64,000 nt of DNA from Candidatus Woesearchaeota archaeon (GTDB lineage Archaea > Nanobdellota > Nanobdellia > Woesearchaeales > UBA10216), in contig JACPCV010000006.1 in assembly GCA_016184345.1 (NCBI GenBank), positions 64,065 to 128,064 on the forward strand. Direction: 5' to 3'. The notes beneath the pieces are model-generated. The model searched no databases and was not told the origin of the DNA. It saw only the letters and a list, made by a program, of their open reading frames with translations. Each line of letters starts with the position of its first letter. Within the stretch, counting starts at the first letter, position 1. Of the stretch, positions 1,557 to 56,733 are shown one piece after another. The translations under genes were made by a program, and so were the position numbers.

Positions 1557-4500
1557 GTGTGCAGTTTGGGTAAAAGAGGGAGACTAGTCTGCTTAGCGGT
1601 TTTTTCCCTGCTGCTGCTATCTGTTTTTTCAGCAGGCGCTTATGCTGTGGATTATGTTGCAAAGGTCCAGCTTTCGCTTGAAAAGTCCTTTTACGGCCCT
1701 AATGAGGAAGTTCACCTTACTGGCAGCGTCTTTCTCAGCAACTTGTCAGCGAATGATACCAGCTTTGTTGCCGTTTCCGGCGCCTCGGTTAATGTTTCCA
1801 TAAGCAACTCCTCCACCAACGGCTCTGTGCTGCAGTCAAACTACACGCTTAACACAAGCGCTGACGGCTCGTTCAAGTCGAGAAGCGACCTTGTCCCTTC
1901 AGGCATAATCGTGTCCGCTCCGGCTGGCGACGGCTACTATAACATCAGCGCATCCTACCGCGACCCCAACAATGTCGAGTGGAAATCCACTGGTGTGATA
2001 AGGGTTTTCGCCAATTCTGTTGACCAGATTTCCATAAGCCCTGCTGAAGCAAGGTATTATTCAGGAGAGACCGCCTTAGTTACCCTCAGGGCGCTCAGGG
2101 AAGTCGGCGACAAGAAGGTTGCCCTCGCCAATATAACCATAAACGGCTCTATGAGGTATACGAACCGCACAACAATCTCAACGTTTTTCTGCACAACCGC
2201 AAATGACGGCCTCTGCACTGTCTCTGTGTCTGTGCCGTCTGCGGTCGGCACTTACCTGCTTGAAGCGAACAATTTCCTGAGCATTTCCTATTTCACTGTT
2301 GTTCCGTTTGAGGCGTTCGTGTACATCAGGGACTCCACTGGCGAGAGCTTTAAGGAGATTCTCAAGGCCAATGAGCAGGCCTCGGTTGAGGTCAATGTAA
2401 AGTCAAACGGCAGCAATCCCACTGGTGATTTTGTCTTCAACGGCACAGTAACAGATTCCAGCAACAACGTCGTGGCAAACATTACATCAACAGCGCTGAA
2501 CAGCAACAATTCCTACACTAACAGGTTTTCCTTTACAATCACCAATTCTTTCGTAAATGGCGTCTATTACGCTTCTGTGACCGTCTACAAGACAGGCACG
2601 AGCAGCAGGGTAAGCACCTCAACATCTTTCCAGGTCAGGTCGTGGAGCCTGACTGCAAACAAGGGCTCCAGAAACTCAGGCTTTGAATATGAGTACACGA
2701 CTTTCCCCGAGAAGAACGTCTCGTTTGAGATTTTCCCGAAAGAATACGAAAATGGCACAGTAATAACAGGGCTTAACAGCACCCAGTTCAACATCACGCT
2801 CACAAGCAAGACAGGCGCTGTCCTTGCAGTAGGCAACGCTACATACAATGCTTCGTGCAGCAGCTCAGGCTGCTACGAGTTTACCATTGCAGCACCTTCT
2901 GCATCGGGAAGGTACCTGCTGTCTGTTTCGCTCAACTACAGCAGCGAAACTCAGACTGCGCACAGGCTCGTGAGCGTCACAACTACTTCAGTGTCGGCAA
3001 CGCCAAGCAACCAGGAGGGCCAGCTCAAGGAGCTCTTCAGCACATCAGAGGCAGTTTACATATCGCTGTCTGCAAAGAACCTGACTTCCAGCGTGAACAT
3101 CACTGACGTGCTGCTGGAATCGGTAATTTACCAGAACGGCACAAAGTTCAACTTTACTGAGGTTGCACTCTGGGATAATGTCAGCTCTAACAATTCTGCC
3201 CTCGAGTGGGCATGGAACGGTTCAGCGCAAAGGCTGAAGCTTGACGCTCCCAAGACTGGTGGGAACTACCTTATTAACTTCTTTGTCAACAACCGCTCGG
3301 CTGCCGCAAGCGCCACGTTTACCATTAACCCGTATGCGGTTTGCGGTGCTGCGAAGAGCACAGCCGGCTCAGTTGACAGCTCAAGCAGCTTTTATGTGTG
3401 GCAGTACAAGACAACAGACACGGTTTACCTTGAGCTCAAGGTAACCCAAGCGCAAAATGGTGTGGGAAAGGCGGCTGCGTCGAATGGGACATTCAGCAGT
3501 TCGTATTACGGCATGGGAATGGCGTGCTATGTTGACACGACAAAGACCCAGGCGATAACAAACGCCACTATAGTAGTTGAGGAAGTTGCCAATCTCCAGA
3601 CAGGGACAAAGGCAACGCTGAACACATCTGCCTCAACATGCTCTGCTGATGACAACTCAGGCACATACACCTGCACTGTGAAGCCTGAAACAAAATGGGA
3701 TGGTGGAAGGTATTCTGTGAAGCTGAAGATAACAGGTGCTGATGGCGCTACAATTGACAAGGCGGAAAGCGTATTTGAGGCCAGGGCATTTTACCTTTGG
3801 GCTTACAGCAACTCCTGGACCAACAAGCCGACAAGCAACATAACCTTCAACGTTCAGATGTACGAGGCCGGGACAAACTGGTGGAGCAATTACGGCAGCA
3901 CTGGCGGCATCACTGGTGAGGTAGCTATCCAGAAGGTTGAGTACAACGGCAAGGATGGTGAATGGCTCTGGCCGCCAATTGACATCGGCTACAATACTAC
4001 AGGGCTTAATGCCTCCAACATCTCAAACGGCAGGGGCAGCTTCACCTTGTCAACTGACAGGCTGCCGAGGGGAGGGTGGGAACCAGGCTACTATGTGGTT
4101 ACGGTAAAGGGCACAAACACGGCATCTGGTGAAATCGACTATGGCCAGGCATGGCTGGGCATCAAGCAGTGGGAAACATACGCAAGCCCGGTTGACACCT
4201 CAGGCAGCGGCACTGGCATACAATACAAGGACTCCTTTGGAACTAAGGAAAACGTGACGCTCTTTGTCAGGATAACAAATGCCGGGGATTGGAGCGACAG
4301 CGGCAACACCAACCTCGCTGGGGGGAGTAATGTGAGTGTTGGCGTCAAGAAGCTGCAGTACTACAAGGGCGGAGCCCTGTCTGAGCTTAACAAGTCGGCA
4401 TACAGTTTCACATACGTCAACGTTACGGCTTCAAGCCCGTGGTATTCAAGCGGCAACTCAGGCACTCACAACAAGTACTTCCTTAACATTACTCCAGCAA

Positions 4501-7397
4501 GCAAATGGGACGGCGGATGGTATACTGTCATCCTTGACGTTAACGGCACTGAAACAGGCTACGGCTGGTTTAACATAATATCCTTCGGGGTTGACACGCA
4601 GCCCACAGATTCCAGCGGCGTGTACACTTACTCTTCGAGGAGCGCCGGGCCTAGGTATTTCAATGTTACAGCCACTAAGAGCAAGAAAACCTCTTACAGT
4701 TTCTACAAGGCAAACGATTACATAAACACCACTGTTAAGGACATAGTGTTAAGTGTCTGGAGGGAGGATACCTGGGAGTCAGAGAAGCTCGAGTATCCTG
4801 AAGACCTCAACGTCTCGCCGTTGTGGGTCAACGGTAGTGCCATGGTTTCAGTCAACAAGTCCGGCAGCTGGGTTGGAGGCTATTATTGGGGCGAGATAAC
4901 CCTGCAGGATTCCGAGAACTCCACGGCAACCGGTTACCTGTGGTTCAGCGTCAGGTCATTCAGGGTTGACACGTCAGTGCGCAACTATACTGTTGACACC
5001 GATGCCAATGTTTCTGTGAGCCTTGACACTAGGCAGCCGGACTGGGGCAATAACAGCGTTGTTTCCGGCAATTACACCATCACGAGCATCTATGAGGACG
5101 TCTGGTCTGGCTCTGGGAGGAGCAGGACAACGTATACTGACTACAGGCCGAACAGCACCGACACGTTTAATGGCACAACAATCCTGAACGTCACTCCAAA
5201 CTCAGGCAGCTGGGGCTCGGGCAGCTACGGCGGCTACCACTACCTTACCGCTGTTGTGCGGGACAATGCTGACAACACCACCCAGACAGGATGGATATCA
5301 TTCAGGGCAGTGCCTTTTTCAATATCCGTGGCCGCTATTCCGAACCAGTACTCATTCAGCCAGACAAGCAATGTGACAGTGAACGTGACAGTCACGAAGT
5401 CGGCAACAGGCGCAGTCGCAACAGCCAACCTGTCAAGGGCGTTTGAGTCCACCTGGCCAACCCAGACCGAGTACGGCTTTGCTGTAGGCAGCTGCACTTC
5501 CGCTTCCAACGGAAACGCTTGCCAGGTAACCGGGACGCAAAACATAACCTTGATTGCACCTTCAGGAGGGTGGCCTGCAGGATGGCACTACATCAATCTT
5601 GAATTCTTCCCTGCAGCAGGCGGAAGCAAGACACAGGCTGACGGCAGCGCATGGTTCAATGCCGTGCAGGCATACGATGGCAACTTCAACAACGTTGACG
5701 ATGGTGGTCTCAACTACAAGTACTACTTCGGCTTAAGCGAGAACATCACAATCAGGCTTATCGTGCGCAACTCAAACTATGTGCCGCAGCAGGTCAATAT
5801 AACAGCGGTTGAGATGTCCGAAGACGGCGACAGCTGCTGGTACGAATCCTGCAAGGCATACGGCAACTACTCATACAACGTGCTTAACGGCTCTGGCGGC
5901 AATGAGATAAAAGGCAATGGCACCATAAGGATTCTGCTAAACAGTTCCCAGTGGAAGAGGGGCCAGCACTCTATCAGGGCCACTATACAGGGCTCTGCCG
6001 GTAATGCGGTAATAAAGACAGGCTATGTGCACGTGAAAGACACCTCTGCCCCGAACGTCACGATAGTCTCGCCGCAGCTTGGGCAGGTGATTAACGCAAC
6101 ATCTTTGCTCTTTAACGCCACTAGCAACGAAAACGTGATATGCAGTTTAACAGTGCTTAATTATGACACGTTCTCACAGTGGTACTGTGGAGGCGCAGGG
6201 GGAAGTGGTAACGGCACTAACTCAACTGAGCCGTCCTGCAACAGCACCAGGTTCAACGGAAGCACCTACTACTACCAGAACATTAACTACCCACCTTGGG
6301 GTCCGATGAATACAGGCGGCCTTGTGCACCATTACAACATAAGCACGGCAGGCTGGGCCAACCAGGACTATGGTATAGCAGCATGGTGCAACGATGCAGA
6401 CTGGAATTGGATTAATCCCAAAACTGCGTTCAAGTTCAATGGCTCAACAACTGCAGTGCCGTTAAGGGTAAACCTCACAAGCCCTGCAAACCCCTCAATA
6501 GCAAACGCCAGCACTGTAACGTTCAGGTACAACGTTTCAGGCCCTTCAAACTCTGTTGCGAACTGCAGCGTTTACATAAACGTAAGCAACGCGTGGGCAG
6601 CCAATTTAAGCGGCGTTATGGCAAACATCACCAACACCACCAATATCACGGCCGTGAATGTTGCAGGATTTAATAACGGCGCATACGTCTGGAACACGTA
6701 CTGCTATCAGACTACGAATGCCTCAAACGCTGCCTGGGCAGCTTCAAACTTCACGTTCAACGTCGTGAACAACGTAACTTCTCTGCCTGTGGCAGTCAAC
6801 CTTACAAGCCCCGCCAACAATTCAGTGCAAACGTCCTCGCCTGTTGTGCTCGCCTATAACGTTTCGGGCCCGACAGGCATGAGCTGCGCTTTGTGGAGCA
6901 ACTCCACAGGTGTCTGGAAGGCGAACATCACAAACACCTCGGCAGGGCCAGGGCAGCATAACGGCAGCCACTCCTTTGCGAACGGCAACTATACCTGGAA
7001 CGCGAGGTGCGAGGAGAACACCAACAGCAGCAACTACGCCTGGGGGCTGAACCGCACGTTAGCCGTGGAGGGTGCCAATAACATAACAGTCAGCTTAACA
7101 AGCCCTGGAAACAACTCAAACGCTAACGCCAGCACAATCAACTTCATGTACAACGTGAGCACAACCGCTGTTTCGACAGTCAACTGCACTATCTGGGGCA
7201 ACTTCAGCGGCTCATGGGCAGCGAACTTCACAAATACCTCCCTGAGCCCTGGCAGCATTAGCGCCCCTGTCGCCGCGACCTATCTGAACCTCAGCACAAG
7301 CGATTACCTGTGGAACACAAGGTGCATTGACGCAGCAGACAGCTCAGTATTCGCCTTTGCAAGATACAACTGGACATTTAAGAGAAATTCATCGTAA
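1557..7397 (+). CDS. giant secreted surface protein (1946 aa), heavily N-glycosylation-sequon-rich, S-layer/adhesin-like
   Basis: 5.8-kb ORF with GTG start and signal peptide LVCLAVFSLLLLSVFSAGAYA. No later TM segment. Very dense N-x-S/T sequons, beta-rich Ig-like texture, tandem C-terminal domains. Confidence 0.85.
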   Translation: MCSLGKRGRLVCLAVFSLLLLSVFSAGAYAVDYVAKVQLSLEKSFYGPNEEVHLTGSVFLSNLSANDTSFVAVSGASVNVSISNSSTNGSVLQSNYTLNTSADGSFKSRSDLVPSGIIVSAPAGDGYYNISASYRDPNNVEWKSTGVIRVFANSVDQISISPAEARYYSGETALVTLRALREVGDKKVALANITINGSMRYTNRTTISTFFCTTANDGLCTVSVSVPSAVGTYLLEANNFLSISYFTVVPFEAFVYIRDSTGESFKEILKANEQASVEVNVKSNGSNPTGDFVFNGTVTDSSNNVVANITSTALNSNNSYTNRFSFTITNSFVNGVYYASVTVYKTGTSSRVSTSTSFQVRSWSLTANKGSRNSGFEYEYTTFPEKNVSFEIFPKEYENGTVITGLNSTQFNITLTSKTGAVLAVGNATYNASCSSSGCYEFTIAAPSASGRYLLSVSLNYSSETQTAHRLVSVTTTSVSATPSNQEGQLKELFSTSEAVYISLSAKNLTSSVNITDVLLESVIYQNGTKFNFTEVALWDNVSSNNSALEWAWNGSAQRLKLDAPKTGGNYLINFFVNNRSAAASATFTINPYAVCGAAKSTAGSVDSSSSFYVWQYKTTDTVYLELKVTQAQNGVGKAAASNGTFSSSYYGMGMACYVDTTKTQAITNATIVVEEVANLQTGTKATLNTSASTCSADDNSGTYTCTVKPETKWDGGRYSVKLKITGADGATIDKAESVFEARAFYLWAYSNSWTNKPTSNITFNVQMYEAGTNWWSNYGSTGGITGEVAIQKVEYNGKDGEWLWPPIDIGYNTTGLNASNISNGRGSFTLSTDRLPRGGWEPGYYVVTVKGTNTASGEIDYGQAWLGIKQWETYASPVDTSGSGTGIQYKDSFGTKENVTLFVRITNAGDWSDSGNTNLAGGSNVSVGVKKLQYYKGGALSELNKSAYSFTYVNVTASSPWYSSGNSGTHNKYFLNITPASKWDGGWYTVILDVNGTETGYGWFNIISFGVDTQPTDSSGVYTYSSRSAGPRYFNVTATKSKKTSYSFYKANDYINTTVKDIVLSVWREDTWESEKLEYPEDLNVSPLWVNGSAMVSVNKSGSWVGGYYWGEITLQDSENSTATGYLWFSVRSFRVDTSVRNYTVDTDANVSVSLDTRQPDWGNNSVVSGNYTITSIYEDVWSGSGRSRTTYTDYRPNSTDTFNGTTILNVTPNSGSWGSGSYGGYHYLTAVVRDNADNTTQTGWISFRAVPFSISVAAIPNQYSFSQTSNVTVNVTVTKSATGAVATANLSRAFESTWPTQTEYGFAVGSCTSASNGNACQVTGTQNITLIAPSGGWPAGWHYINLEFFPAAGGSKTQADGSAWFNAVQAYDGNFNNVDDGGLNYKYYFGLSENITIRLIVRNSNYVPQQVNITAVEMSEDGDSCWYESCKAYGNYSYNVLNGSGGNEIKGNGTIRILLNSSQWKRGQHSIRATIQGSAGNAVIKTGYVHVKDTSAPNVTIVSPQLGQVINATSLLFNATSNENVICSLTVLNYDTFSQWYCGGAGGSGNGTNSTEPSCNSTRFNGSTYYYQNINYPPWGPMNTGGLVHHYNISTAGWANQDYGIAAWCNDADWNWINPKTAFKFNGSTTAVPLRVNLTSPANPSIANASTVTFRYNVSGPSNSVANCSVYINVSNAWAANLSGVMANITNTTNITAVNVAGFNNGAYVWNTYCYQTTNASNAAWAASNFTFNVVNNVTSLPVAVNLTSPANNSVQTSSPVVLAYNVSGPTGMSCALWSNSTGVWKANITNTSAGPGQHNGSHSFANGNYTWNARCEENTNSSNYAWGLNRTLAVEGANNITVSLTSPGNNSNANASTINFMYNVSTTAVSTVNCTIWGNFSGSWAANFTNTSLSPGSISAPVAATYLNLSTSDYLWNTRCIDAADSSVFAFARYNWTFKRNSS
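6468..7394 (+). repeat. three tandem ~100-aa domain repeats at the C-terminus of the giant surface protein
   Basis: Units begin near 6468, 6792 and 7085: VNLTSPANPSIANASTVTFRYNVSG / VNLTSPANNSVQTSSPVVLAYNVSG / VSLTSPGNNSNANASTINFMYNVS. Each has a conserved Cys and a W-N-T-R/Y-C motif. A looser fourth unit starts near 6054. Confidence 0.6.
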
Positions 7398-16445: not shown

Positions 16446-16568
16446 ATCCTGCAGGTCAAATCCCTCTTATTTAAGCATTATGAATGGTGGGCTGAAGTGG
16501 CGTTTACAGGCTTAATAATCGCGTGCTGCAGTCTTCAGGCAGCTTATTGCCGGATTTGAAAAGATATT

Positions 16569-16614
16569 TATAGACAACTTCGATTATCTATCTTATATAC
16601 CAAAGTTGTCTATA
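16569..16614. repeat. solo hairpin copy related to hairpin 1 of twin-hairpin element C
   Basis: TATAGACAACTT / AAGTTGTCTATA 12-bp inverted repeat with a 22-nt loop. The first 20 nt (TATAGACAACTTCGATTATC) are identical to 52347-52366. Confidence 0.7.
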
Positions 16615-17409: not shown

Positions 17410-17505
17410 TATAGCATCGGAGCTTGATAATCGGATACGAATAGTCGCTCCGATGCATATAGGAGAGGAACGTATCATTCCGAAAATCTAGTTCCTCACC
17501 TATAG
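17410..17505. repeat. twin-hairpin ~95-nt intergenic element, copy A
   Basis: TATAG, hairpin 1 (GCATCGGAGC/GCTCCGATGC), hairpin 2 (ATAGGAGAGGAAC/GTTCCTCACCTAT), then AG. Aligns end to end with 47492-47585. Confidence 0.8.
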
Positions 17506-29256: not shown

Positions 29257-29328
29257 AATAAAAAAGTAAGGCTCCCTAACGTGAGTTGGGGGTATGGGAG
29301 AGAAGTCTCTTTAGGGAGCCCCTTTTTT
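29257..29328. terminator. 10-bp hairpin (GGCTCCCTAA/TTAGGGAGCC, 31-nt loop) flanked by A6 and T6: bidirectional terminator-like structure
   Basis: Read directly from the sequence. Lies downstream of vapC and only ~25-40 nt upstream of the mscS start codon. Confidence 0.5.
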
Positions 29329-47296: not shown

Positions 47297-47485
47297 ATGG
47301 AAGCGCAGGGCGGGCAGGAGAAAAATTTCAGCCGGTGCGAGATTTGCAGGGCAGAGCTGGGCAGCCTGAATCTTGACACGCCCCTCTACTGCGTCCCATG
47401 CATAGAAGAGATGGAGAAGTTGAGCATGAGCCCGAAGCGGTACAGGAGGCATAGGGAACTCAGCGAAGCCTTGTCTGGGAAATAA
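47297..47485 (+). CDS. small zinc-ribbon protein (62 aa)
   Basis: CEIC...(15)...CVPC pattern. Confidence 0.4.
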   Translation: MEAQGGQEKNFSRCEICRAELGSLNLDTPLYCVPCIEEMEKLSMSPKRYRRHRELSEALSGK

Positions 47486-47491
47486 GTTTAT

Positions 47492-47585
47492 TATAGCAAC
47501 GGAACTTAATAATCGGAACAATAGTCGCTCCGTTGCATATAGGAGAGGAAAATAGATTTCCGAAAATTAAGTTCCTCTCCTATAG
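47492..47585. repeat. twin-hairpin ~95-nt intergenic element, copy B
   Basis: TATAG, hairpin 1 (GCAACGGAAC/GCTCCGTTGC), hairpin 2 (ATAGGAGAGGAA/TTCCTCTCCTAT), then AG. Fills the convergent spacer between 47485 and 47589. Confidence 0.8.
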
Positions 47586-47588
47586 TTT

Positions 47589-48077
47589 TTATTTCTGCTG
47601 CGGCTGCTGTTGTGGTTTGGACAGGTATTTTCTCGCATACGCTGGATGACCGTGGTAAATCAGCTGCACTTGCAGGCCGTAAAGCTCGGCAAAGTGCTCA
47701 GCTTCCTTAACTGCAAATTCTACTAACTCCTCAGGCCGCATGGTCACATGCATAAAGTCAGGTGGCAACAGAACTTCAGAATACTGCGCTATCAATCCCT
47801 TGTTTTGCAGCCAAAGAAATTTCACAATGCCAAATGCTTTGTACCTTATTATCATGCCCCAGACAGAATTTGCAAACGCAGATGTTTCTCCAAATGCGGT
47901 GTCCCTCGCCTTGGCCAGCCCCTGCCCAAGCTCGAACTCTATTACTATGCTTTCAAGGGCGCCTTCAAATTTCCTCTCGCCGAAGATTTCCTTGAAATGC
48001 CCTGAATTTCTTTTAGGAAGTACTCCAATTGTGTCGTTGCTATGCACAAACCTATAGGGTAACTGCTTGTTTGTCAT
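47589..48077 (-). CDS. hypothetical protein (162 aa), last gene of an uncharacterised operon
   Basis: ATG at 48077 (TTG alternative at 48089) overlaps the upstream gene's 3' end. Gln/Pro-rich C-terminus; no motif recognised. Confidence 0.5.
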   Translation of the reverse strand: MTNKQLPYRFVHSNDTIGVLPKRNSGHFKEIFGERKFEGALESIVIEFELGQGLAKARDTAFGETSAFANSVWGMIIRYKAFGIVKFLWLQNKGLIAQYSEVLLPPDFMHVTMRPEELVEFAVKEAEHFAELYGLQVQLIYHGHPAYARKYLSKPQQQPQQK

Positions 48078-49851
48078 TTGCCTGCCCAATTTCTGCGTTA
48101 GCTCCTTGTAATTTCAGCTCCAAATCTTTGCGCCTTTCAATGACCGGCTTGACAAAGGCGAATTCTCCCCCGAATAATTTCACTATTTCAGCTGCCGCTT
48201 CAGCCACTATAGAGTCATTCCAACTGGCGGTGGCTTCGATGTCTACGCCGAAACGTGCCTGCAGTTCTTCTGGAATCTTCTCAGCTCTTGTAATCATGGA
48301 ATTATATCTGTCTACAAGCCTCCTCTGCTTCATGGCAAGCGGGTTGTACTTTTCAAAACCGGTTTTATATTGTTTTCTCTGAGGCTCACTCATAGCGCCG
48401 CTTGCTTTTGAAAGTGATTCTTCTATTTGGGTAAGTTGTTCGTGAAGTGAGCTGAGTTCAGCGTCAAGCTTTTCAATCTGCGGACCGAGCACTGGCAACA
48501 TTCTTCCTATGCCTCCAAGCTCGTAAATAGGCATTGGAACAACCGGCATTAGGTTGTCCAGTAGCGAGACCAGGGCATCCAAGCTTCGCTTATTGAGCAT
48601 ACCGTCCATCCCTAACTTTTTTGCTGCCAGCCCTGCCATGAGCCCTGTTTTGAAGGCCTCGGCTGTGCGCTCGCTTATCTGCTTGCTTAATTCTGGCTGG
48701 CCTTGGACTGCTACTGCCTCCGGCGGGTAAAGCTTCCGGATTGCCGGGTTTTCCGGCAAAAGAGCGCTAAGAAGCAGGCTTGAGCGCACATCGGCAGCTT
48801 TGTAGCTCTGTTGCTCGTCAGAAATGAAGTAGGCAACAACTATGGTGTCTAATGTGCGTATGAGCGCAGACGCCATGTGCGCTAATCTCTGCGGCTGCAA
48901 GTAAGGCGCCTGCACATCGTCAGGACCGTTGATAGCGTCTGCCAGTTCGTAGGGCGCAAGCGCTTTTTTGTTGCTTCCACCGGCAAGCGTTTCAGCCACT
49001 TTTGCAAGGAAATGCGACCCGTACCTTGCCCCAAGGATTTTTTGGATTTCCTGCTCAACTTGTATTCTTACGCCAACTATCTCCACTTCTTCAGGAACAA
49101 CCTGGCCTTGCTTCATGGCAAACAATGCATGCGTAAGGGCAGCCAGACCAGCTTCGTCATTGCTGGCTTGTCCGCTTTCAAGCCTTTTAAGCGTGCTGGC
49201 TGTTTCCTGGATTTTTGAGTTCAGGCTAGCTATCCTTGCCGTAAGGGTGTCGTATTCTGGCGGCCGCGAAAACTGCGGCATCATTTCGGAAAGGAGCTTC
49301 AGCACTTGCTCATCCACCTTTCTTGTGCGTATGTAATCTCTTATTTCTTCTTTTAGACGCGCAGTGGCTCCTTTCTCTTTTCTGAGCATATCATAAACGG
49401 CTCCAACGAGAGCATTGATGTCTGCCTTCGTCAAATCTTCCTCCTGGCTGATCCTTGAGCTTATACGATACAGAGATGCGCCATTTTGAGCTGCATAGTC
49501 AGCGAAGGGCTTCGCTCGTGTGGCTTGTGAGGAGCCGGCAGCAATGAGTTCCGTGAAATCTGGCTTGAGCGAATCGCGCGCATCACGTGCTTGGCGCACC
49601 GCATCTTCAAGGCTGATCATCTCAAATTCAAGGCCTTCTTTAACGCTAGAAATGAGCAGAGGCATAACAGCAGCAGCTGCAACCTTGGAGTTTCCAATGT
49701 CGGTTAATATTTGGTAGCCCTGCCTCACTTGACCGCCGTAAGTCGCAGTCAAAACCAGGGCTTTCGCTTTAGGCACAGCTATCGCTGCCATGTAATTCGC
49801 ATCGGCCTTTTCAGTGGTTAGCTGCCCTATCCTGTGATAGACATTCCCCAT
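48052..49851 (-). CDS. hypothetical protein (599 aa), largely alpha-helical/coiled
   Basis: Long ATG ORF with coding-like composition; no catalytic or nucleotide-binding motif recognised. Confidence 0.6.
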   Translation of the reverse strand: MGNVYHRIGQLTTEKADANYMAAIAVPKAKALVLTATYGGQVRQGYQILTDIGNSKVAAAAVMPLLISSVKEGLEFEMISLEDAVRQARDARDSLKPDFTELIAAGSSQATRAKPFADYAAQNGASLYRISSRISQEEDLTKADINALVGAVYDMLRKEKGATARLKEEIRDYIRTRKVDEQVLKLLSEMMPQFSRPPEYDTLTARIASLNSKIQETASTLKRLESGQASNDEAGLAALTHALFAMKQGQVVPEEVEIVGVRIQVEQEIQKILGARYGSHFLAKVAETLAGGSNKKALAPYELADAINGPDDVQAPYLQPQRLAHMASALIRTLDTIVVAYFISDEQQSYKAADVRSSLLLSALLPENPAIRKLYPPEAVAVQGQPELSKQISERTAEAFKTGLMAGLAAKKLGMDGMLNKRSLDALVSLLDNLMPVVPMPIYELGGIGRMLPVLGPQIEKLDAELSSLHEQLTQIEESLSKASGAMSEPQRKQYKTGFEKYNPLAMKQRRLVDRYNSMITRAEKIPEELQARFGVDIEATASWNDSIVAEAAAEIVKLFGGEFAFVKPVIERRKDLELKLQGANAEIGQANDKQAVTL

Positions 49852-52036: not shown

Positions 52037-52351
52037 GTGGAAGATTCCGACGTGGATTCAGCAAACATTCTCAGGAAAAACCTTCAAAAGAGCAGCAGCC
52101 AGTGGAATAGCGTTTATAAGCTGTATTACGACGCGTTGCACGAATTGGCAGAGTCCTTCTTGCAGTTTGAAAAGGCAAAAATCGACAACCACCAGTGCTT
52201 ATTTTCATATCTTTGTGAAAAACACCCGCAACTGGAGTTCAGCTGGGACTTCTTTGAGAAGGTGAGGACAAAGAGGAACGGGATTAACTATTATGGCACG
52301 CCAGTAGATTCAGACGACTGGAAAGATGCGGAACTTCAGTTTAATTTATAG
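52037..52351 (+). pseudogene. truncated paralog of the HEPN-like gene at 32722..33225
   Basis: ...DNHQCLFSYLCEKHPQLEFSWDFFEKVRTKRNGINYYG...DDWK aligns with ...DSHQCKNAYICFKHAELELNWEFLETVRLKRNAINYRG...DDWK. It lacks ~55 N-terminal and ~25 C-terminal residues. Its stop codon lies inside element C. Confidence 0.55.
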
Positions 52352-52441
52352 ACAACTTCGATTATCCCTCATTATTATATCAAAGTTGTCTTAGAGGACT
52401 TTGAACAAAAGTAACAAATAAGAGTTATTCAAAGTCCTCTA
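52347..52441. repeat. twin-hairpin ~95-nt intergenic element, copy C (divergent sequence, same architecture)
   Basis: TATAG, hairpin 1 (AGACAACTT/AAGTTGTCT, 24-nt loop), hairpin 2 (TAGAGGACTTTGAA/TTCAAAGTCCTCTA, 14 bp, 22-nt loop). Confidence 0.75.
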
Positions 52442-52513
52442 TACATTAAAAAATTAAGGGAAGAGATTAAGAAGAAGCTTGGTAAATGAGTGCCAATAAT
52501 AAAAGCGCCGCGG

Positions 52514-53533
52514 TTAAAGCTTTGGCGCAAAACCCGGATTCCACTCATAAAATCCGCGCTCCAGCTGGTATGCAGCAAATTGCAGCATATCAACAATTGC
52601 CCTTGAGCTGATACCATGAGTGACTAAATTGGATTCGCCTTGTAATCGGACGGCTCCCAAAATGATTCCGGCCAGTTCACCATGCTTCGTAATTATAGGT
52701 CCACCACTCATGCCTGGCGCAGCTTCAGCAGTGATTTGAAAATCTTGGAGTTGCACAGACATAACTTTGTCATCACGCAGGCTTCCTGTAAAAGATCGAG
52801 AGATTATTTGTCCATGATGCAAAATCATGCTTAAGCCTTTATATCCCGCCGCAACCACAGGCTCGTCTAAGTTATGCGTTCGCGCAAATCTGATGCCTGT
52901 AGGCATATGACTTCCCGGTATTACTGCTTTTAGCAGAACAAAGTCCTGCATATCTTGCGCACCCAAAGAATAAACTTTTGGTTCTGGCGAACCAATAAAG
53001 AAGTTGAGGTCTAGGGGATACCGTTGTCCTTTGCGGTACATTGCCGCGTAACCGCGCATTGCATCCAACATTTCTTCTATGGGAGAGTCCTTTTTGAAAA
53101 GCCCGCTTGTGACTTCACTCCATGTAGTGAGCTCCTCCTGAACAACGTGCATGGCCGTAAGAATAAAGCCATCATCTGTGAGCCGGATGCCTGTTCCTCG
53201 TTTTTTGCGAGTTCCGGTTTCCTTGTCCAGTATTTCAATCAGGACGGTGTTATCCAGTATTTTTGCCTGCCCTTCTTCAGGAGACCCTGATGGCAAGTCA
53301 TTGTCTGCGACTGCTTCCTGCAATGCCTTTATGCTTGCCAATCGCTCATCAAGGGTATCGTAAATGACCATACCAGAAGGTAATCGGCTTTCATTTATAA
53401 AGATTATAACGCCGCGGGAGGGACTTTCAACGCCCCTGCGTTGAAATGCTCCGAACGCAGTGAGGCTGTTTGAACCCTCAAGCCCTTTCAGGCAGTGAAT
53501 CCTTGTGTGGTATCGTAGGTATCTAAAGGACAC
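52514..53533 (-). CDS. trypsin-like (S1/PA-clan) serine protease without signal peptide
   Basis: Catalytic motifs LTAMHVV (His), DFVLLK (Asp) and GMSGGPI (Ser). The start is uncertain: GTG at 53533 or ATG at 53371. Confidence 0.7.
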   Translation of the reverse strand: MSFRYLRYHTRIHCLKGLEGSNSLTAFGAFQRRGVESPSRGVIIFINESRLPSGMVIYDTLDERLASIKALQEAVADNDLPSGSPEEGQAKILDNTVLIEILDKETGTRKKRGTGIRLTDDGFILTAMHVVQEELTTWSEVTSGLFKKDSPIEEMLDAMRGYAAMYRKGQRYPLDLNFFIGSPEPKVYSLGAQDMQDFVLLKAVIPGSHMPTGIRFARTHNLDEPVVAAGYKGLSMILHHGQIISRSFTGSLRDDKVMSVQLQDFQITAEAAPGMSGGPIITKHGELAGIILGAVRLQGESNLVTHGISSRAIVDMLQFAAYQLERGFYEWNPGFAPKL

Positions 53534-54760: not shown

Positions 54761-54796
54761 GGGCTGAGGCGATATTCGCTTCAGCCTCAATTTTCT
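54761..54796 (+). terminator. hairpin (GGGCTGAGGCG-ATATT-CGCTTCAGCCT) followed by T-rich tract
   Basis: Starts 2 nt after the tRNA 3' end, followed by CAATTTTCT. Overlaps the stop of the convergent LAGLIDADG gene. Confidence 0.5.
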
Positions 54797-55593
54797 AATT
54801 TTGTAGCAGCCACTAAAGCTATTTTAACTTTTAATCTATCACTATTTACATTACGAGCTTGCCAAAGCTGAAATTTATTAAGATGCTTTGGACTGGCAAA
54901 GCCAATCATCTTCATCCACGAAATCAATTGCGTTGGACCGTAAATATGAATTCTGTGAATAATACTAAAGCCTCTTTTAAATCTGATATCCTTTTGAACT
55001 ATATCGAAGGAACGAGAGACTTTGAGACCAAGTAATTCCAATGCAGATGCAATTTCTTCCATATAAGCCCTACTTTTAGAAGCGCCTGTAATCACAGGAT
55101 AATAGGGCAGTGATTTGTAGCGCTTTTTTAATGTTAGGCAAAAATCAGTATCAGCCAAGCCACGGATGTAGGACTTCAGGAAAGGTTGATTTTCTTTAAT
55201 CCAAAAAGGGATTTTAAGCTGGTTATATTTATTATTTGAAGGCAGACCTAGAATTTGAGTCAGATAAGTTGCTATCCACTTTGAGCCAAACTCGAAACCG
55301 AAAGTTCCTGAGTGAAAGTCTTTGACCTTTACTTCTAAGTTGAATAGCTTCTTGAGTAAAGGTAAGAGCACATCGAAATAAAGGGGCTTCTCATCAAGGG
55401 GGTTGCCTGAACAATGAATCCCATACCGCTGCTTATCAAGATTAAGTTCTATATGCCCATCACCTGCAAGAATCCCACAGAAATACGCCAAATCGTCCGA
55501 GTATTCTGTAGGCAATCGTATGCCTTTTTTTATGTCAACATGTGAAGGCTTAACTTCAAACTCATCAAATCGTATCAAATTGCTCATTTTCAT
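54787..55593 (-). CDS. free-standing LAGLIDADG homing endonuclease (double-motif)
   Basis: Motifs FCGILAGDGH and YIRGLADTDF about 105 aa apart. AT-rich. The ATG at 55593 with GGAG upstream is preferred to the TTG at 55617. Confidence 0.85.
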   Translation of the reverse strand: MKMSNLIRFDEFEVKPSHVDIKKGIRLPTEYSDDLAYFCGILAGDGHIELNLDKQRYGIHCSGNPLDEKPLYFDVLLPLLKKLFNLEVKVKDFHSGTFGFEFGSKWIATYLTQILGLPSNNKYNQLKIPFWIKENQPFLKSYIRGLADTDFCLTLKKRYKSLPYYPVITGASKSRAYMEEIASALELLGLKVSRSFDIVQKDIRFKRGFSIIHRIHIYGPTQLISWMKMIGFASPKHLNKFQLWQARNVNSDRLKVKIALVAATKLEN

Positions 55594-55668
55594 CTTCTTC
55601 ACACTCCAAAACCTCAATCAAGCGTTGAGGTTTCTTCCGTTAGGAAAGAAACTTCCGCAGTTTGGAAA

Positions 55669-55762
55669 GGAGGACGCTGAGCGGAGCTGCCTAATTGCTT
55701 TTAGCGATTAGCGACCCTGCATAGCAGGGGAAAAGCATAATTTGGCAGCTCTGCGGTCCTCC
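55669..55762. other. 94-nt rod-like imperfect inverted repeat (candidate structured RNA)
   Basis: GGAGGAC/GTCCTCC and AGCTGCC/GGCAGCT outer helices enclose a CCCTGC-ATA-GCAGGG hairpin. A separate 9-bp hairpin lies at 55609-55633. Confidence 0.3.
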
Positions 55763-55905
55763 GAGCCCCTCATAAGAAGTCATTTATATACCTTAGCCGG
55801 GCACTTGTCCAGTGTCCAGTGAGAAACTACGAGAATTCTGGAAAATTTTCGGGTTAAGTGCACAAAACCATCAACATTAAAAACAGGGTAAAATATGACT
55901 TAAGT

Positions 55906-56733
55906 ATGACCGAAGAGTCAGAATATTACGTGTATGTTTATATTGATCCAAGGAATTATGAGGAATTCTATTATGGAAAGGGTAAAGGGGATAGAAAAGA
56001 AGCTCATTTATTTGATGAAGGCGACTCAGAAAAATCAAAAAGGATAAAGGACATAAAAAATGAGGGGCTTAATCCAATAATAAGGGTAATTGCAAAAGGC
56101 CTTTCAGAAAGTGATGCGTTTTTAATTGAAAAAACATTGATTTGGAAATTAGGTCGCACACTTACAAACAAGTCGTCTGGACATTTTGCCGAGAAATTCA
56201 GGCCGCATAACACCTTTCATGTATCCCTTCCATTGTTCGACTATAAAAATGGAGTTTATTATGTCAACGTGGGGGAAGGAAGCACACGCTGCTGGGAAGA
56301 TTGCCAAAAGTATTGTTTTATTTCAGCGGGTCAAGGGAAAAAATGGAGCGACCAAATCAAATCCTTGGAAATTGGTGATGTTGTGGTTGCGTATCTTAAA
56401 AAGCACGGCTTTGTTGGAATAGGTAGGGTTAAAGAAAAAGCTGTGCCCGTACTTGACTTCAGGTTTAACGGCGGTTTACTCTCTGATTTTGAACTTAAAA
56501 GCAAGGAGATTTTCAAAAATTGCAAAAACGAAAACGGAGAATTTTTAGTAAAAATAGATTGGATTAAAACAGTTGACAGAAGGCGTGCAAGATTCCAAAG
56601 GAATGCGGGTCTTTTCACAACCCAACTCGTAAAGGCTTCGCTGGATAAGCAGATCAAAACTTTAGAATTTTTAGAACAGGGATTCGGATTAAAGTTCAGC
56701 GACATATTATTAAAAGATATAAAACGAAGTTAA
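55906..56733 (+). CDS. GIY-YIG nuclease-domain protein with unassigned C-terminal domain
   Basis: N-terminal YYVYVYIDPRNYEEFYYGKGKGDRKEAH...IEKTLI fits GIY-YIG. The C-terminal ~170 aa (KKWSDQIKSLEIGDVVVAYLKKHGFVGIGRV) may be a PUA/EVE-like fold (guess). TATA-like TCATTTATATACC at 55781-55793. Confidence 0.75.
   Translation: MTEESEYYVYVYIDPRNYEEFYYGKGKGDRKEAHLFDEGDSEKSKRIKDIKNEGLNPIIRVIAKGLSESDAFLIEKTLIWKLGRTLTNKSSGHFAEKFRPHNTFHVSLPLFDYKNGVYYVNVGEGSTRCWEDCQKYCFISAGQGKKWSDQIKSLEIGDVVVAYLKKHGFVGIGRVKEKAVPVLDFRFNGGLLSDFELKSKEIFKNCKNENGEFLVKIDWIKTVDRRRARFQRNAGLFTTQLVKASLDKQIKTLEFLEQGFGLKFSDILLKDIKRS

What the first reader, a model, noticed from the sequence alone, without database searches (positions are those of the whole stretch)
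17410..17505. Twin-hairpin ~95-nt element (copy A) with a compensatory stem substitution relative to copy B
17410-17505 and 47492-47585 align end to end, roughly four fifths identical by eye. Each begins TATAG and forms hairpin 1 (A: GCATCGGAGC/GCTCCGATGC; B: GCAACGGAAC/GCTCCGTTGC). A 2-nt spacer and a 12-bp hairpin 2 (ATAGGAGAGGAA.../...TTCCTCNCCTAT) follow, and the element ends CTATAG. The T-to-A difference at stem position 4 of hairpin 1 is mirrored by A-to-T on the opposite arm, so the pairing is conserved rather than the sequence. No transposase, integrase or RNA-family signature I recognise is nearby. Candidates are a REP/PATE-like non-autonomous element, a 3'-end/terminator module, or a small structured RNA.
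Basis: partly seen in the sequence, partly recalled or inferred. Interest (0 to 1): 0.7.

Follow-up and report, generated by a model that had tools for sequence, protein, structure and literature searches.

The report
Twin-hairpin miniature transposon (archaeal MITE)
The two ~95-base look-alikes are copies of a small, gene-less mobile DNA element (a MITE) that inserted at TA sites between genes of a Woesearchaeota-like archaeon; it is real and cleanly delimited, but it is an ordinary kind of genomic parasite, not a new RNA or regulatory system.

Summary
Copies A (17410-17505) and B (47492-47585) are 85% identical and both fold into the same two hairpins. The noted T/A swap is one of many compensatory changes: among 21 distinct relatives, 9 of 26 stem pairs change on both sides.

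The element is a non-autonomous transposon of 89-91 nt (TAG...CTA) flanked by a duplicated TA. Its ends are imperfect 27-nt inverted repeats, so hairpin 2 is roughly the reverse complement of hairpin 1.

The main evidence:
- Two related genomes have the aspartase gene and its convergent neighbour abutting, with no element.
- Removing A plus one TA restores the aspartase C-terminus HQLK* found in the closest homologues. The window reads HQL*, with the stop taken from the element end.
- Related copies are nested inside one another at TA sites.
- Short-read contigs from at least 16 runs break at the element, which implies near-identical sister copies.

The window also holds a second twin-hairpin family (52349-52441) and a solo hairpin (16571-16612). 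No transposase was found in the window or in about 340 kb of related loci, so the mobilising enzyme is inferred. An IS630/Tc1-like DDE enzyme is favoured; a REPIN/RAYT-like hairpin-specific enzyme is not excluded. This is a new member of a known kind, of modest interest.

The parts
17410..17411 (.). Copy A, left TA (target-site duplication)
   Evidence: Deleting the element plus one TA restores CAC CAG C[TA] AAG TAA = HQLK*, as in the closest aspartases.
17412..17502 (+). Copy A, family-1 twin-hairpin MITE proper (TAG...CTA, 91 nt)
   Evidence: The orthologous sites in L043 and L044 are empty. Its last three bases, CTA, form the TAG stop of the aspartase gene on the minus strand.
17414..17456 (+). 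Copy A hairpin 1 (GCATCGGAGC / GCTCCGATGC, 23-nt loop)
   Evidence: Fold. Covariation in helix 1: 5 of 13 pairs change on both sides.
17458..17504 (+). Copy A hairpin 2 (TATAGGAGAGGAAC / GTTCCTCACCTATA, with an A.A mismatch at 17498)
   Evidence: Fold. Covariation in helix 2: 4 of 13 pairs change on both sides.
17503..17504 (.). Copy A, right TA (target-site duplication)
47492..47493 (.). Copy B, left TA
   Evidence: Logan contigs arriving from the left stop being unique at 47491, one base before this TA.
47494..47582 (+). Copy B, family-1 twin-hairpin MITE proper (89 nt). It lies between the TAA stop of ORF 47297-47485 (+) and the TAA stop of ORF 47589-48089 (-).
   Evidence: The ends are 27-nt inverted repeats, 81% complementary (I1).
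47583..47584 (.). Copy B, right TA
   Evidence: Logan contigs arriving from the right stop being unique at 47584.
52349..52441 (+). Family-2 twin-hairpin MITE (TAGACAACTT... / TAGAGGACTTTGAA...TTCAAAGTCCTCTA), flanked by TA at 52347-48 and 52442-43. It lies between convergent ORFs 52037-52351 (+) and 52514-53533 (-).
   Evidence: I3; z -6.9. At least 10 independent copies in other loci share the TA-TAG...CTA-TA ends.
16571..16612 (+). Solo family-2 hairpin (TAGACAACTT...AAGTTGTCTA), flanked by TA at 16569-70 and 16613-14, in the divergent intergenic region.
   Evidence: (I25). The orthologous position in L044 carries the full family-2 twin.

Best explanation

The mobile unit is 89-91 nt, starts TAG and ends CTA. 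It inserts into a TA dinucleotide, which ends up on both sides (TA-TAG...CTA-TA). Its two ends are imperfect 27-nt inverted repeats. Each end is followed by an internal sequence that pairs back on the outer 10-13 nt, so the element folds as two hairpins, and hairpin 2 is roughly the reverse complement of hairpin 1.

The element encodes nothing and must be moved in trans. I infer, but have not shown, that the enzyme is a TA-duplicating cut-and-paste DDE transposase of the IS630/Tc1-mariner type encoded elsewhere in the genome or community.

Copies survive where they do little harm: between convergent genes or at the extreme 3' end of a gene. At a gene end, the terminal TAG can supply the stop codon. 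Copy A removed the last lysine of aspartate ammonia-lyase in this way.

Shown here: repeat family, boundaries, insertion at TA, empty sites, nesting, conserved pairing. Inferred: the enzyme class, and whether the hairpins serve transposition or merely persist.
For: 1. Orthologous empty sites. In L043 (aspartase 88% identical) and L044 (83%), the aspartase gene and its convergent neighbour are 2 nt apart or overlap, with no element. In the window they are 102 nt apart, and the element accounts for 95 nt of that gap (both TAs included).
2. Reading-frame restoration. Removing the element plus one TA gives ...CAC CAG CTA AAG TAA = HQLK*. The seven closest homologues that share this C-terminal motif end HQLK, RNLK or HNLK. 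The window protein ends HQL*, with its stop inside the element end.
3. Nested insertions give filled/empty pairs in related loci.
- A family-1 copy sits in CCACC|TA|AGCAG in L024 and L025, where L041, L018, L030 and L022 are empty.
- A divergent subfamily copy sits at that same TA in L031 and L021.
- A 180-nt multi-hairpin insert sits at the hairpin 1/hairpin 2 junction TA.
4. Terminal inverted repeats. B's arms are 27 nt and 81% complementary. Across 21 copies, 90.5% of cells pair at 20 end-to-end columns, against 40-46% when the partners are slid.
5. Dispersed family. Copies turn up in unrelated gene contexts in two MAGs and 22 metagenome contigs, and no gene is consistently adjacent.
6. Contig breaks. 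Logan contigs from at least 16 sequencing runs end inside the elements. For B the non-unique stretch is exactly 47491-47584. For A it is 17427-17497, bounded by A's two private stem-breaking substitutions. This implies near-identical sister copies, and so recent activity.
7. Sister families. Other families in the same genomes share only the TA-TAG...CTA-TA ends and the twin-hairpin layout.
8. Precedent. A Woesearchaea genome was reported among the most MITE-dense archaeal genomes (PMC11602168).
Against: - No transposase was found. There is no transposase Pfam hit among 48 window ORFs of 150 aa or more (16 of them match no Pfam family), and no multi-copy ORF resembling one in about 340 kb of related loci. 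The trans-acting enzyme and its class are therefore inferred.
- Two of five filled/empty comparisons show one TA fewer than the 'TAG...CTA plus TA duplication' model predicts. These are the solo hairpin against L043, and family 2 inside L022 5642-5831. Slippage in TATATA runs could explain this, but that is an assumption.
- Strong compensatory evolution of the inner stems is not required by a classical double-strand TIR transposase. It fits a hairpin-recognising enzyme better.
- A 2-bp palindromic duplication cannot be told apart from insertion between T and A without duplication.
Confidence: 0.8

Rival explanations
1. This is a REPIN/REP- or PATE-like element moved as single-stranded DNA by a hairpin-recognising HUH (Y1) enzyme, either a RAYT or an IS200/IS605 TnpA. 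The enzyme would bind the folded hairpins and cut next to the conserved ATAG foot. The element is still a non-autonomous mobile element, but with a different enzyme and mechanism.
For: - The element is a doublet of two related palindromic units in inverted orientation, like a REPIN (PMC3116915, PMC3337134).
- Stems are kept by many compensatory changes, as reported for REPINs.
- At least four hairpin families with unrelated stem sequences share only TATAG plus a hairpin. That suggests recognition of structure plus a short motif, as with GTAG in REPs (the GTAG motif is from my own knowledge).
- A solo hairpin unit exists.
- Insertions recur at the same TA in or beside hairpins.
- IS200/IS605 is the most widespread IS family in archaea (PMC13343696).
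Against: - TA is present on both sides and once in the empty site. HUH single-strand transposition makes no duplication and normally needs a 4-5-nt target on one side only. Beyond TA, the flanks share nothing.
- The ends are symmetric inverted repeats that include the loop halves. IS200/IS605 left and right hairpins lie in direct orientation on one strand.
- No Y1_Tnp or RAYT-like ORF was found in the window.
- To my knowledge RAYTs are described in bacteria, not archaea.
Confidence: 0.17
2. The element is primarily a host-functional structured RNA or 3'-end module, such as a bidirectional terminator or mRNA stabiliser between convergent genes, and its copies are kept for that role.
For: - A, B and the family-2 copy all lie between convergent genes.
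- The folds are very stable and the stems covary.
- Loop sequences are conserved.
- Correia elements show that MITE hairpins can be processed in transcripts (PMC2649163).
Against: - Orthologous sites in relatives lack the element, and there the genes simply abut.
- There is no Rfam match even at permissive thresholds.
- No terminator-like pattern falls within the elements. Only B is followed by a T-run.
- G.T against A.C mismatch counts show no strand of function (17 against 10).
- The conserved loop halves are accounted for as the inner parts of the terminal inverted repeats.
- Copies also occur nested in each other and in a divergent promoter region.
Confidence: 0.03

Closest known systems
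Correia / NEMIS elements of Neisseria (CREE)
   Same: Both are about 100-155 bp, non-coding, have about 26-bp terminal inverted repeats, insert at TA with TA duplication, and have no known transposase. Both are found between genes and sometimes disrupt gene ends. The termini begin with the same TATAG (Correia TATAG[CT]GGATTAAC...; here TATAGCAACGGAGCTTAAT...) (PMC2649163; PMC2229807).
   Different: Correia elements are bacterial and fold as one long end-to-end stem. Here each end has its own internal partner, giving two hairpins that are kept by covariation. There is no sequence homology beyond the first 5-6 bases. The IHF site, promoter and RNase III roles of Correia elements have not been shown here.
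RUP and other IS630/Tc1-mariner-derived MITEs (Stowaway-like)
   Same: They have a TA target with duplication, short TIRs and a size near 100 bp, and they are moved in trans by an IS630-family transposase (RUP with IS630-Spn1; PMC2229807). IS630 occurs in archaea (PMC13343696).
   Different: No IS630-like partner with matching ends was found. The internal stems covary, which this class does not need.
REPINs (REP doublets) with RAYT transposases
   Same: Both consist of two related short palindromes in inverted orientation forming one replicative unit. Both show compensatory changes in the stems, a conserved short motif at the hairpin foot, singlet remnants alongside doublets, and mosaics like BIMEs (PMC3116915, PMC3337134, PMC2817692).
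   Different: REPINs are described only in bacteria, are tied to a single-copy RAYT gene and produce no TA duplication. Here TA is duplicated, the motif is ATAG rather than GTAG, and no RAYT was seen.
IS200/IS605-derived PATEs
   Same: They are non-autonomous, have hairpins near both ends, and are common in archaea.
   Different: PATE ends are asymmetric with no TIR, insert 3' of a 4-5-nt target and make no duplication. Here the ends are inverted repeats and only TA is shared by the flanks.
CIR repeats of Caulobacter and Brucella
   Same: The predicted structure has two separate stem-loop arms joined by a linker, rather than one end-to-end stem (PMC2229807).
   Different: CIRs are longer, lack TIRs, carry a GANTC methylation motif, and their mobility is uncertain.

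Membership tests
MITE (generic) | Small (50-800 bp) and non-coding | tested here: met
   The unit is 89-91 nt. The only ORFs running through it are the 3' ends of flanking ORFs and chance ORFs.
MITE (generic) | Terminal inverted repeats of at least 10-15 bp | tested here: met
   B has 27-nt arms, 81% complementary (I1). Across 21 copies, 90.5% of cells pair at 20 end-to-end columns, against 40-46% when slid.
MITE (generic) | Target-site duplication shown by filled and empty sites | tested here: met
   A TA duplication appears in three clean comparisons: A against L043/L044 and the protein C-termini, the nested copy in CCACC|TA|AGCAG, and the insert at the hairpin junction. Two further comparisons are one TA short.
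MITE (generic) | Multiple dispersed copies in unrelated contexts | tested here: met
   There are 21 distinct family-1 sequences in two MAGs and 22 metagenome contigs. Contig breaks imply sister copies in the source population.
MITE (generic) | A cognate autonomous element with matching ends | tested here: inconclusive
   None was found in the window (Pfam on 48 ORFs) or in about 340 kb of related loci.
IS630/Tc1-mariner-derived MITE | TA target duplicated on insertion | tested here: met
IS630/Tc1-mariner-derived MITE | TIRs similar to those of an IS630-family element in the same or a related genome | not testable with these tools
REPIN / RAYT system | Two palindromic units in inverted orientation forming the mobile unit | tested here: met
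   Hairpin 2 is roughly the reverse complement of hairpin 1, loop halves included. Both hairpins are supported by covariation.
REPIN / RAYT system | Association with a single-copy RAYT (Y1 HUH) gene flanked by the repeats | tested here: inconclusive
   No Y1_Tnp hit among the window ORFs. The rest of the genome was not seen.
REPIN / RAYT system | No target duplication, and a GTAG-type head motif | tested here: not met
   TA lies on both sides and once in the empty sites. The head motif is (T)ATAG.
IS200/IS605-derived PATE | Asymmetric ends with hairpins in direct orientation on one strand, and no TIR | tested here: not met
   The ends are inverted repeats over 27 nt.
IS200/IS605-derived PATE | Insertion 3' of a specific 4-5-nt target without duplication | tested here: not met
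   The flanks of 10 insertions share only TA.
Known RNA family (Rfam 15) | Match to a curated covariance model | tested here: not met
   No hit at gathering thresholds in the window. Only chance-level hits at an E-value threshold of 10.
Intrinsic-terminator-like module | Short GC-rich stem, small loop and a following T-run | tested here: not met
   No such site lies inside either element. The loops are 19-23 nt. The scan is bacterial-type, so it is only weakly informative for an archaeon.

The most novel reading that the evidence does not exclude
These elements could be the archaeal counterpart of REPINs. That would be a superfamily of interchangeable hairpin modules defined only by a TATAG foot plus a stem. 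A single structure-specific enzyme (HUH or something new) would move them, not a sequence-specific TIR transposase. The modules would insert preferentially at TA in or beside other hairpins, building BIME-like mosaics of 280-600 nt in DPANN genomes.

If so, it would be a hairpin-directed transposition mode that leaves TA on both sides. It might also represent a long-term, vertically inherited repeat-enzyme partnership in very small archaeal genomes.
Probability: 0.15. Interest if true: 0.65.

Novelty: new member of a known kind. Interest (0 to 1): 0.35.

Why it matters
The practical value is for annotation. These elements end contigs in short-read assemblies of this lineage. They supply stop codons to host genes: aspartate ammonia-lyase here, and possibly ORF 52037-52351. 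They could also be mistaken for small RNAs or terminators.

Biologically, the result documents an apparently recently active family of TA-inserting MITEs, with nested mosaics, in Woesearchaeota-like DPANN archaea, whose mobile DNA is barely described. The unresolved point is what moves them. The combination of TA duplication, weak TIRs, covarying hairpins, and several families sharing only TATAG is unusual enough to justify looking for the enzyme in complete genomes.

Tried and rejected
1. Invertible hairpin loop. The first Logan contig ends, inside hairpin 2, fitted a flip of the loop between its arms. Contigs from the other side rejected this. They end at A's private substitution G17426 and at B's left boundary, which a loop flip does not predict but near-identical sister copies do.
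2. A large structured RNA. The 280-nt repeat in L041 folds with z -9.3 and looked like an omega-RNA or tracrRNA-like gene. Alignment of six copies showed it to be a mosaic of hairpin modules with nested insertions. No conserved neighbouring gene exists and there is no Rfam hit.
3. An autonomous element in L030. Two inverted family-2 copies lie 2.6 kb apart, but they enclose a thioredoxin-reductase-like housekeeping gene (assigned by eye from its translation; no family search was run), not a transposase.
4. Candidate multi-copy ORFs. These turned out to be Lrp/AsnC regulators, ATP-grasp enzymes, RPA and similar proteins.
5. Searches that found nothing: the viral-contig scan for hairpin 2, BLAST against plasmids and phages, and tRNA genes in the window.
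6. Strand of function from G.T against A.C mismatches: 17 against 10, not informative.
7. Chance hits. Three of the six genome-scan hits (L016, L017, L020; unrelated bacteria) are plain palindromes and were discarded.

Full report
**Observation**

A (17410-17505) and B (47492-47585) are 85% identical by BLASTN over 96 columns, and similarity stops at the element ends. Each folds into two adjacent hairpins on either strand, with z-scores of -5.2 to -5.8 and none of 200 shuffles folding as well. The T-A/A-T exchange in hairpin 1 is real. nhmmer and a covariance model find just these two family-1 copies in the window, both on the + strand.

**Setting**

The window is chromosomal archaeal DNA. It encodes AlaRS, Nre, PolX, endonuclease V, GatB/E, RNase HII and HerA. 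The best named relatives of its aspartate ammonia-lyase are Candidatus Woesearchaeota, at 78-81% identity. A, B and a third element all lie between convergent genes. No tRNA and no Rfam family is present.

**A repeat family**

- A genome scan for hairpin 2 found full copies on two contigs of a MAG labelled Methanosarcinales (L015, L019) and in Woesearchaeota UBA10216 (L018).
- A metagenome scan found 22 further contigs.
- After removing duplicates and rejoining copies split by nested inserts, there are 21 distinct family-1 sequences.
- No gene is consistently adjacent.

**Structure**

On the 21 sequences the twin-hairpin structure has 94.8% of cells paired, against 37-48% when the partners are slid. 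Nine of 26 pairs, and 28 cells, change on both sides. None of 500 shuffles reaches any of the measures, and RNAalifold predicts the same two helices independently. Examples in hairpin 1 are GCAACGG/CCGTTGC, GCATCGG/CCGATGC, GCGACGG/CCGTCGC, GCGACAG/CTGTCGC and GCGGCGGAC/GTCCGCCG. In hairpin 2, GGAGAGG/CCTCTCC becomes GGCACGG/CCGTGCC (GGACACGG/CCGTGCC in L021).

The two ends are also inverted repeats: 27 nt at 81% in B, and 90.5% pairing over 20 end-to-end columns across the family. Hairpin 2 is therefore roughly the reverse complement of hairpin 1, loop halves included. This explains why parts of the loops are conserved. G.T and A.C mismatches (17 against 10) give no strand of function.

**Mobility**

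Three lines of evidence agree.

1. Orthologous empty sites. In L043 (GCA_041643095.1, aspartase 88% identical) and L044 (GCA_053533775.1, 83%), the aspartase gene and its convergent neighbour are 2 nt apart or overlap. In the window they are 102 nt apart, and the element accounts for 95 nt of that gap (both TAs included). Removing the element plus one TA yields CAC CAG CTA AAG TAA = HQLK*. The seven closest homologues that share this C-terminal motif end HQLK, RNLK or HNLK. The window protein ends HQL*, and its stop is the terminal TAG of the element.

2. Nested insertions. A family-1 copy sits in CCACC|TA|AGCAG in L024 and L025, where four other copies of the same 280-nt repeat are empty. A divergent subfamily copy occupies that same TA in L031 and L021. 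Other hairpin elements sit at the TA between hairpins 1 and 2, and in the loop of hairpin 1. The clean cases read TA-[TAG...CTA]-TA against a single TA.

3. Contig breaks. Logan contigs from at least 16 sequencing runs that encode the identical flanking proteins all end inside the elements. For B the non-unique stretch is exactly 47491-47584. For A it is 17427-17497, bounded by A's two private substitutions (G17426 and A17498), both of which weaken a stem. Near-identical sister copies must therefore exist in the same populations, so the family has been active recently.

**Sister families**

The window also carries a second twin-hairpin family at 52349-52441 and a solo hairpin of that family at 16571-16612. 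The orthologous position in L044 carries the full twin. At least four families share only the TA-TAG...CTA-TA ends and the layout. In the metagenome loci they are stacked into mosaics of 280-600 nt.

**Mechanism**

The element is a MITE; that much is shown. The enzyme is inferred.

TA on both sides with a single TA in the empty site, together with inverted-repeat ends, is the hallmark of IS630/Tc1-mariner-type cut-and-paste. It matches bacterial MITEs such as Correia, whose ends also start TATAG, and RUP.

Several points count against taking this as settled:
- No transposase was found in the window or in about 340 kb of related loci.
- The inner stems covary, which a double-strand TIR enzyme does not require.
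- Several families share only TATAG plus a hairpin.
- Two of five filled/empty comparisons are one TA short of the model.

These points keep a REPIN/RAYT-like, hairpin-directed mechanism alive. However, the defining features of REPINs (no duplication, a GTAG head) and of IS200/IS605 PATEs (asymmetric ends, a 4-5-nt one-sided target) were tested and not met. A primary role as an RNA or a terminator has no positive support.

**Novelty**

MITEs with a TA duplication are well known. A Woesearchaea genome has already been reported as one of the most MITE-dense archaeal genomes (PMC11602168). As far as my four literature searches show, this particular family and its twin-hairpin, nesting behaviour have not been described. 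I rate it a new member of a known kind, of modest interest. The open question is which enzyme moves it.

Noticed in passing
window 52347-52443: A second twin-hairpin MITE family lies here (TATAGACAACTT... then TAGAGGACTTTGAA...TTCAAAGTCCTCTATA), between convergent ORFs. The TAG of its left end is the stop codon of ORF 52037-52351. At least 10 independent copies occur in related loci.
   Followed up: partly
window 16569-16614; L044 4266-4362: The window has a solo 42-nt hairpin, half of a family-2 element, in the divergent intergenic region upstream of the 244-aa gene. The same junction in relative L044 carries the full twin. So either one hairpin was lost precisely in the window lineage, or single hairpins can move on their own. 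A similar solo unit lies at L046 772-814.
   Followed up: partly
window 16510-16527: GCTTAATAATCGCGTGC matches the loop of family-1 hairpin 1 (GCTTAATAATCGCATGC). It lies in a 34-nt segment that is absent from the orthologous L044 region. It may be a decayed fragment of another insertion.
   Followed up: no
window 55669-55762: A strongly structured, roughly 95-nt intergenic region (GGAGGACGC...GCGGTCCTCC, z -4.8 on the + strand) lies between ORFs 54787-55617 (-) and 55858-56733 (+). It has no Rfam match even at E = 1. It could be an undescribed small RNA or another palindromic repeat.
   Followed up: partly
L041 11947-12226 (also L018, L022, L024, L025, L030 and others): A dispersed composite repeat of about 280 nt is present: a left hairpin module, a family-1 twin hairpin, and a right multi-hairpin module closed by GTCAAGAAC...GTTCTTGAC (fold z -9.3). 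It repeatedly carries further hairpin elements nested at the same TA sites, in the manner of a BIME-like mosaic.
   Followed up: partly
L015, L019 (CAZBPE01, 'uncultured Methanosarcinales archaeon SRP090828_co2_31'): These two contigs carry family-1 copies, and L019 shares homologous genes (45-55% identity) with the Woesearchaeota-like metagenome loci. Their GC content is 45%. Either the contigs are mis-binned DPANN sequence, or the MITE is shared between a host and its episymbiont.
   Followed up: no
window 17500-17505 (minus strand): The aspartate ammonia-lyase gene uses the element's terminal TAG as its stop codon and has lost the conserved C-terminal lysine. This is a small example of a MITE remodelling the end of a gene.
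   Followed up: yes
L001-L014, L048-L061 (Logan contigs): Every short-read contig of this organism that reaches A or B ends within it. These MITEs are a systematic cause of assembly fragmentation in this lineage.
   Followed up: yes
window 29270-29320: An 18-nt imperfect inverted repeat (GGCTCCCTAACGTGAGTT / AAGTCTCTTTAGGGAGCC, 15-nt spacer) lies here. It is unrelated in sequence to the TATAG hairpin families.
   Followed up: no
window 1557-7397: This is a 1946-aa ORF. A 67%-identical partial homologue in L044 has no Pfam annotation on record. Its function is unknown and it was not examined.
   Followed up: no
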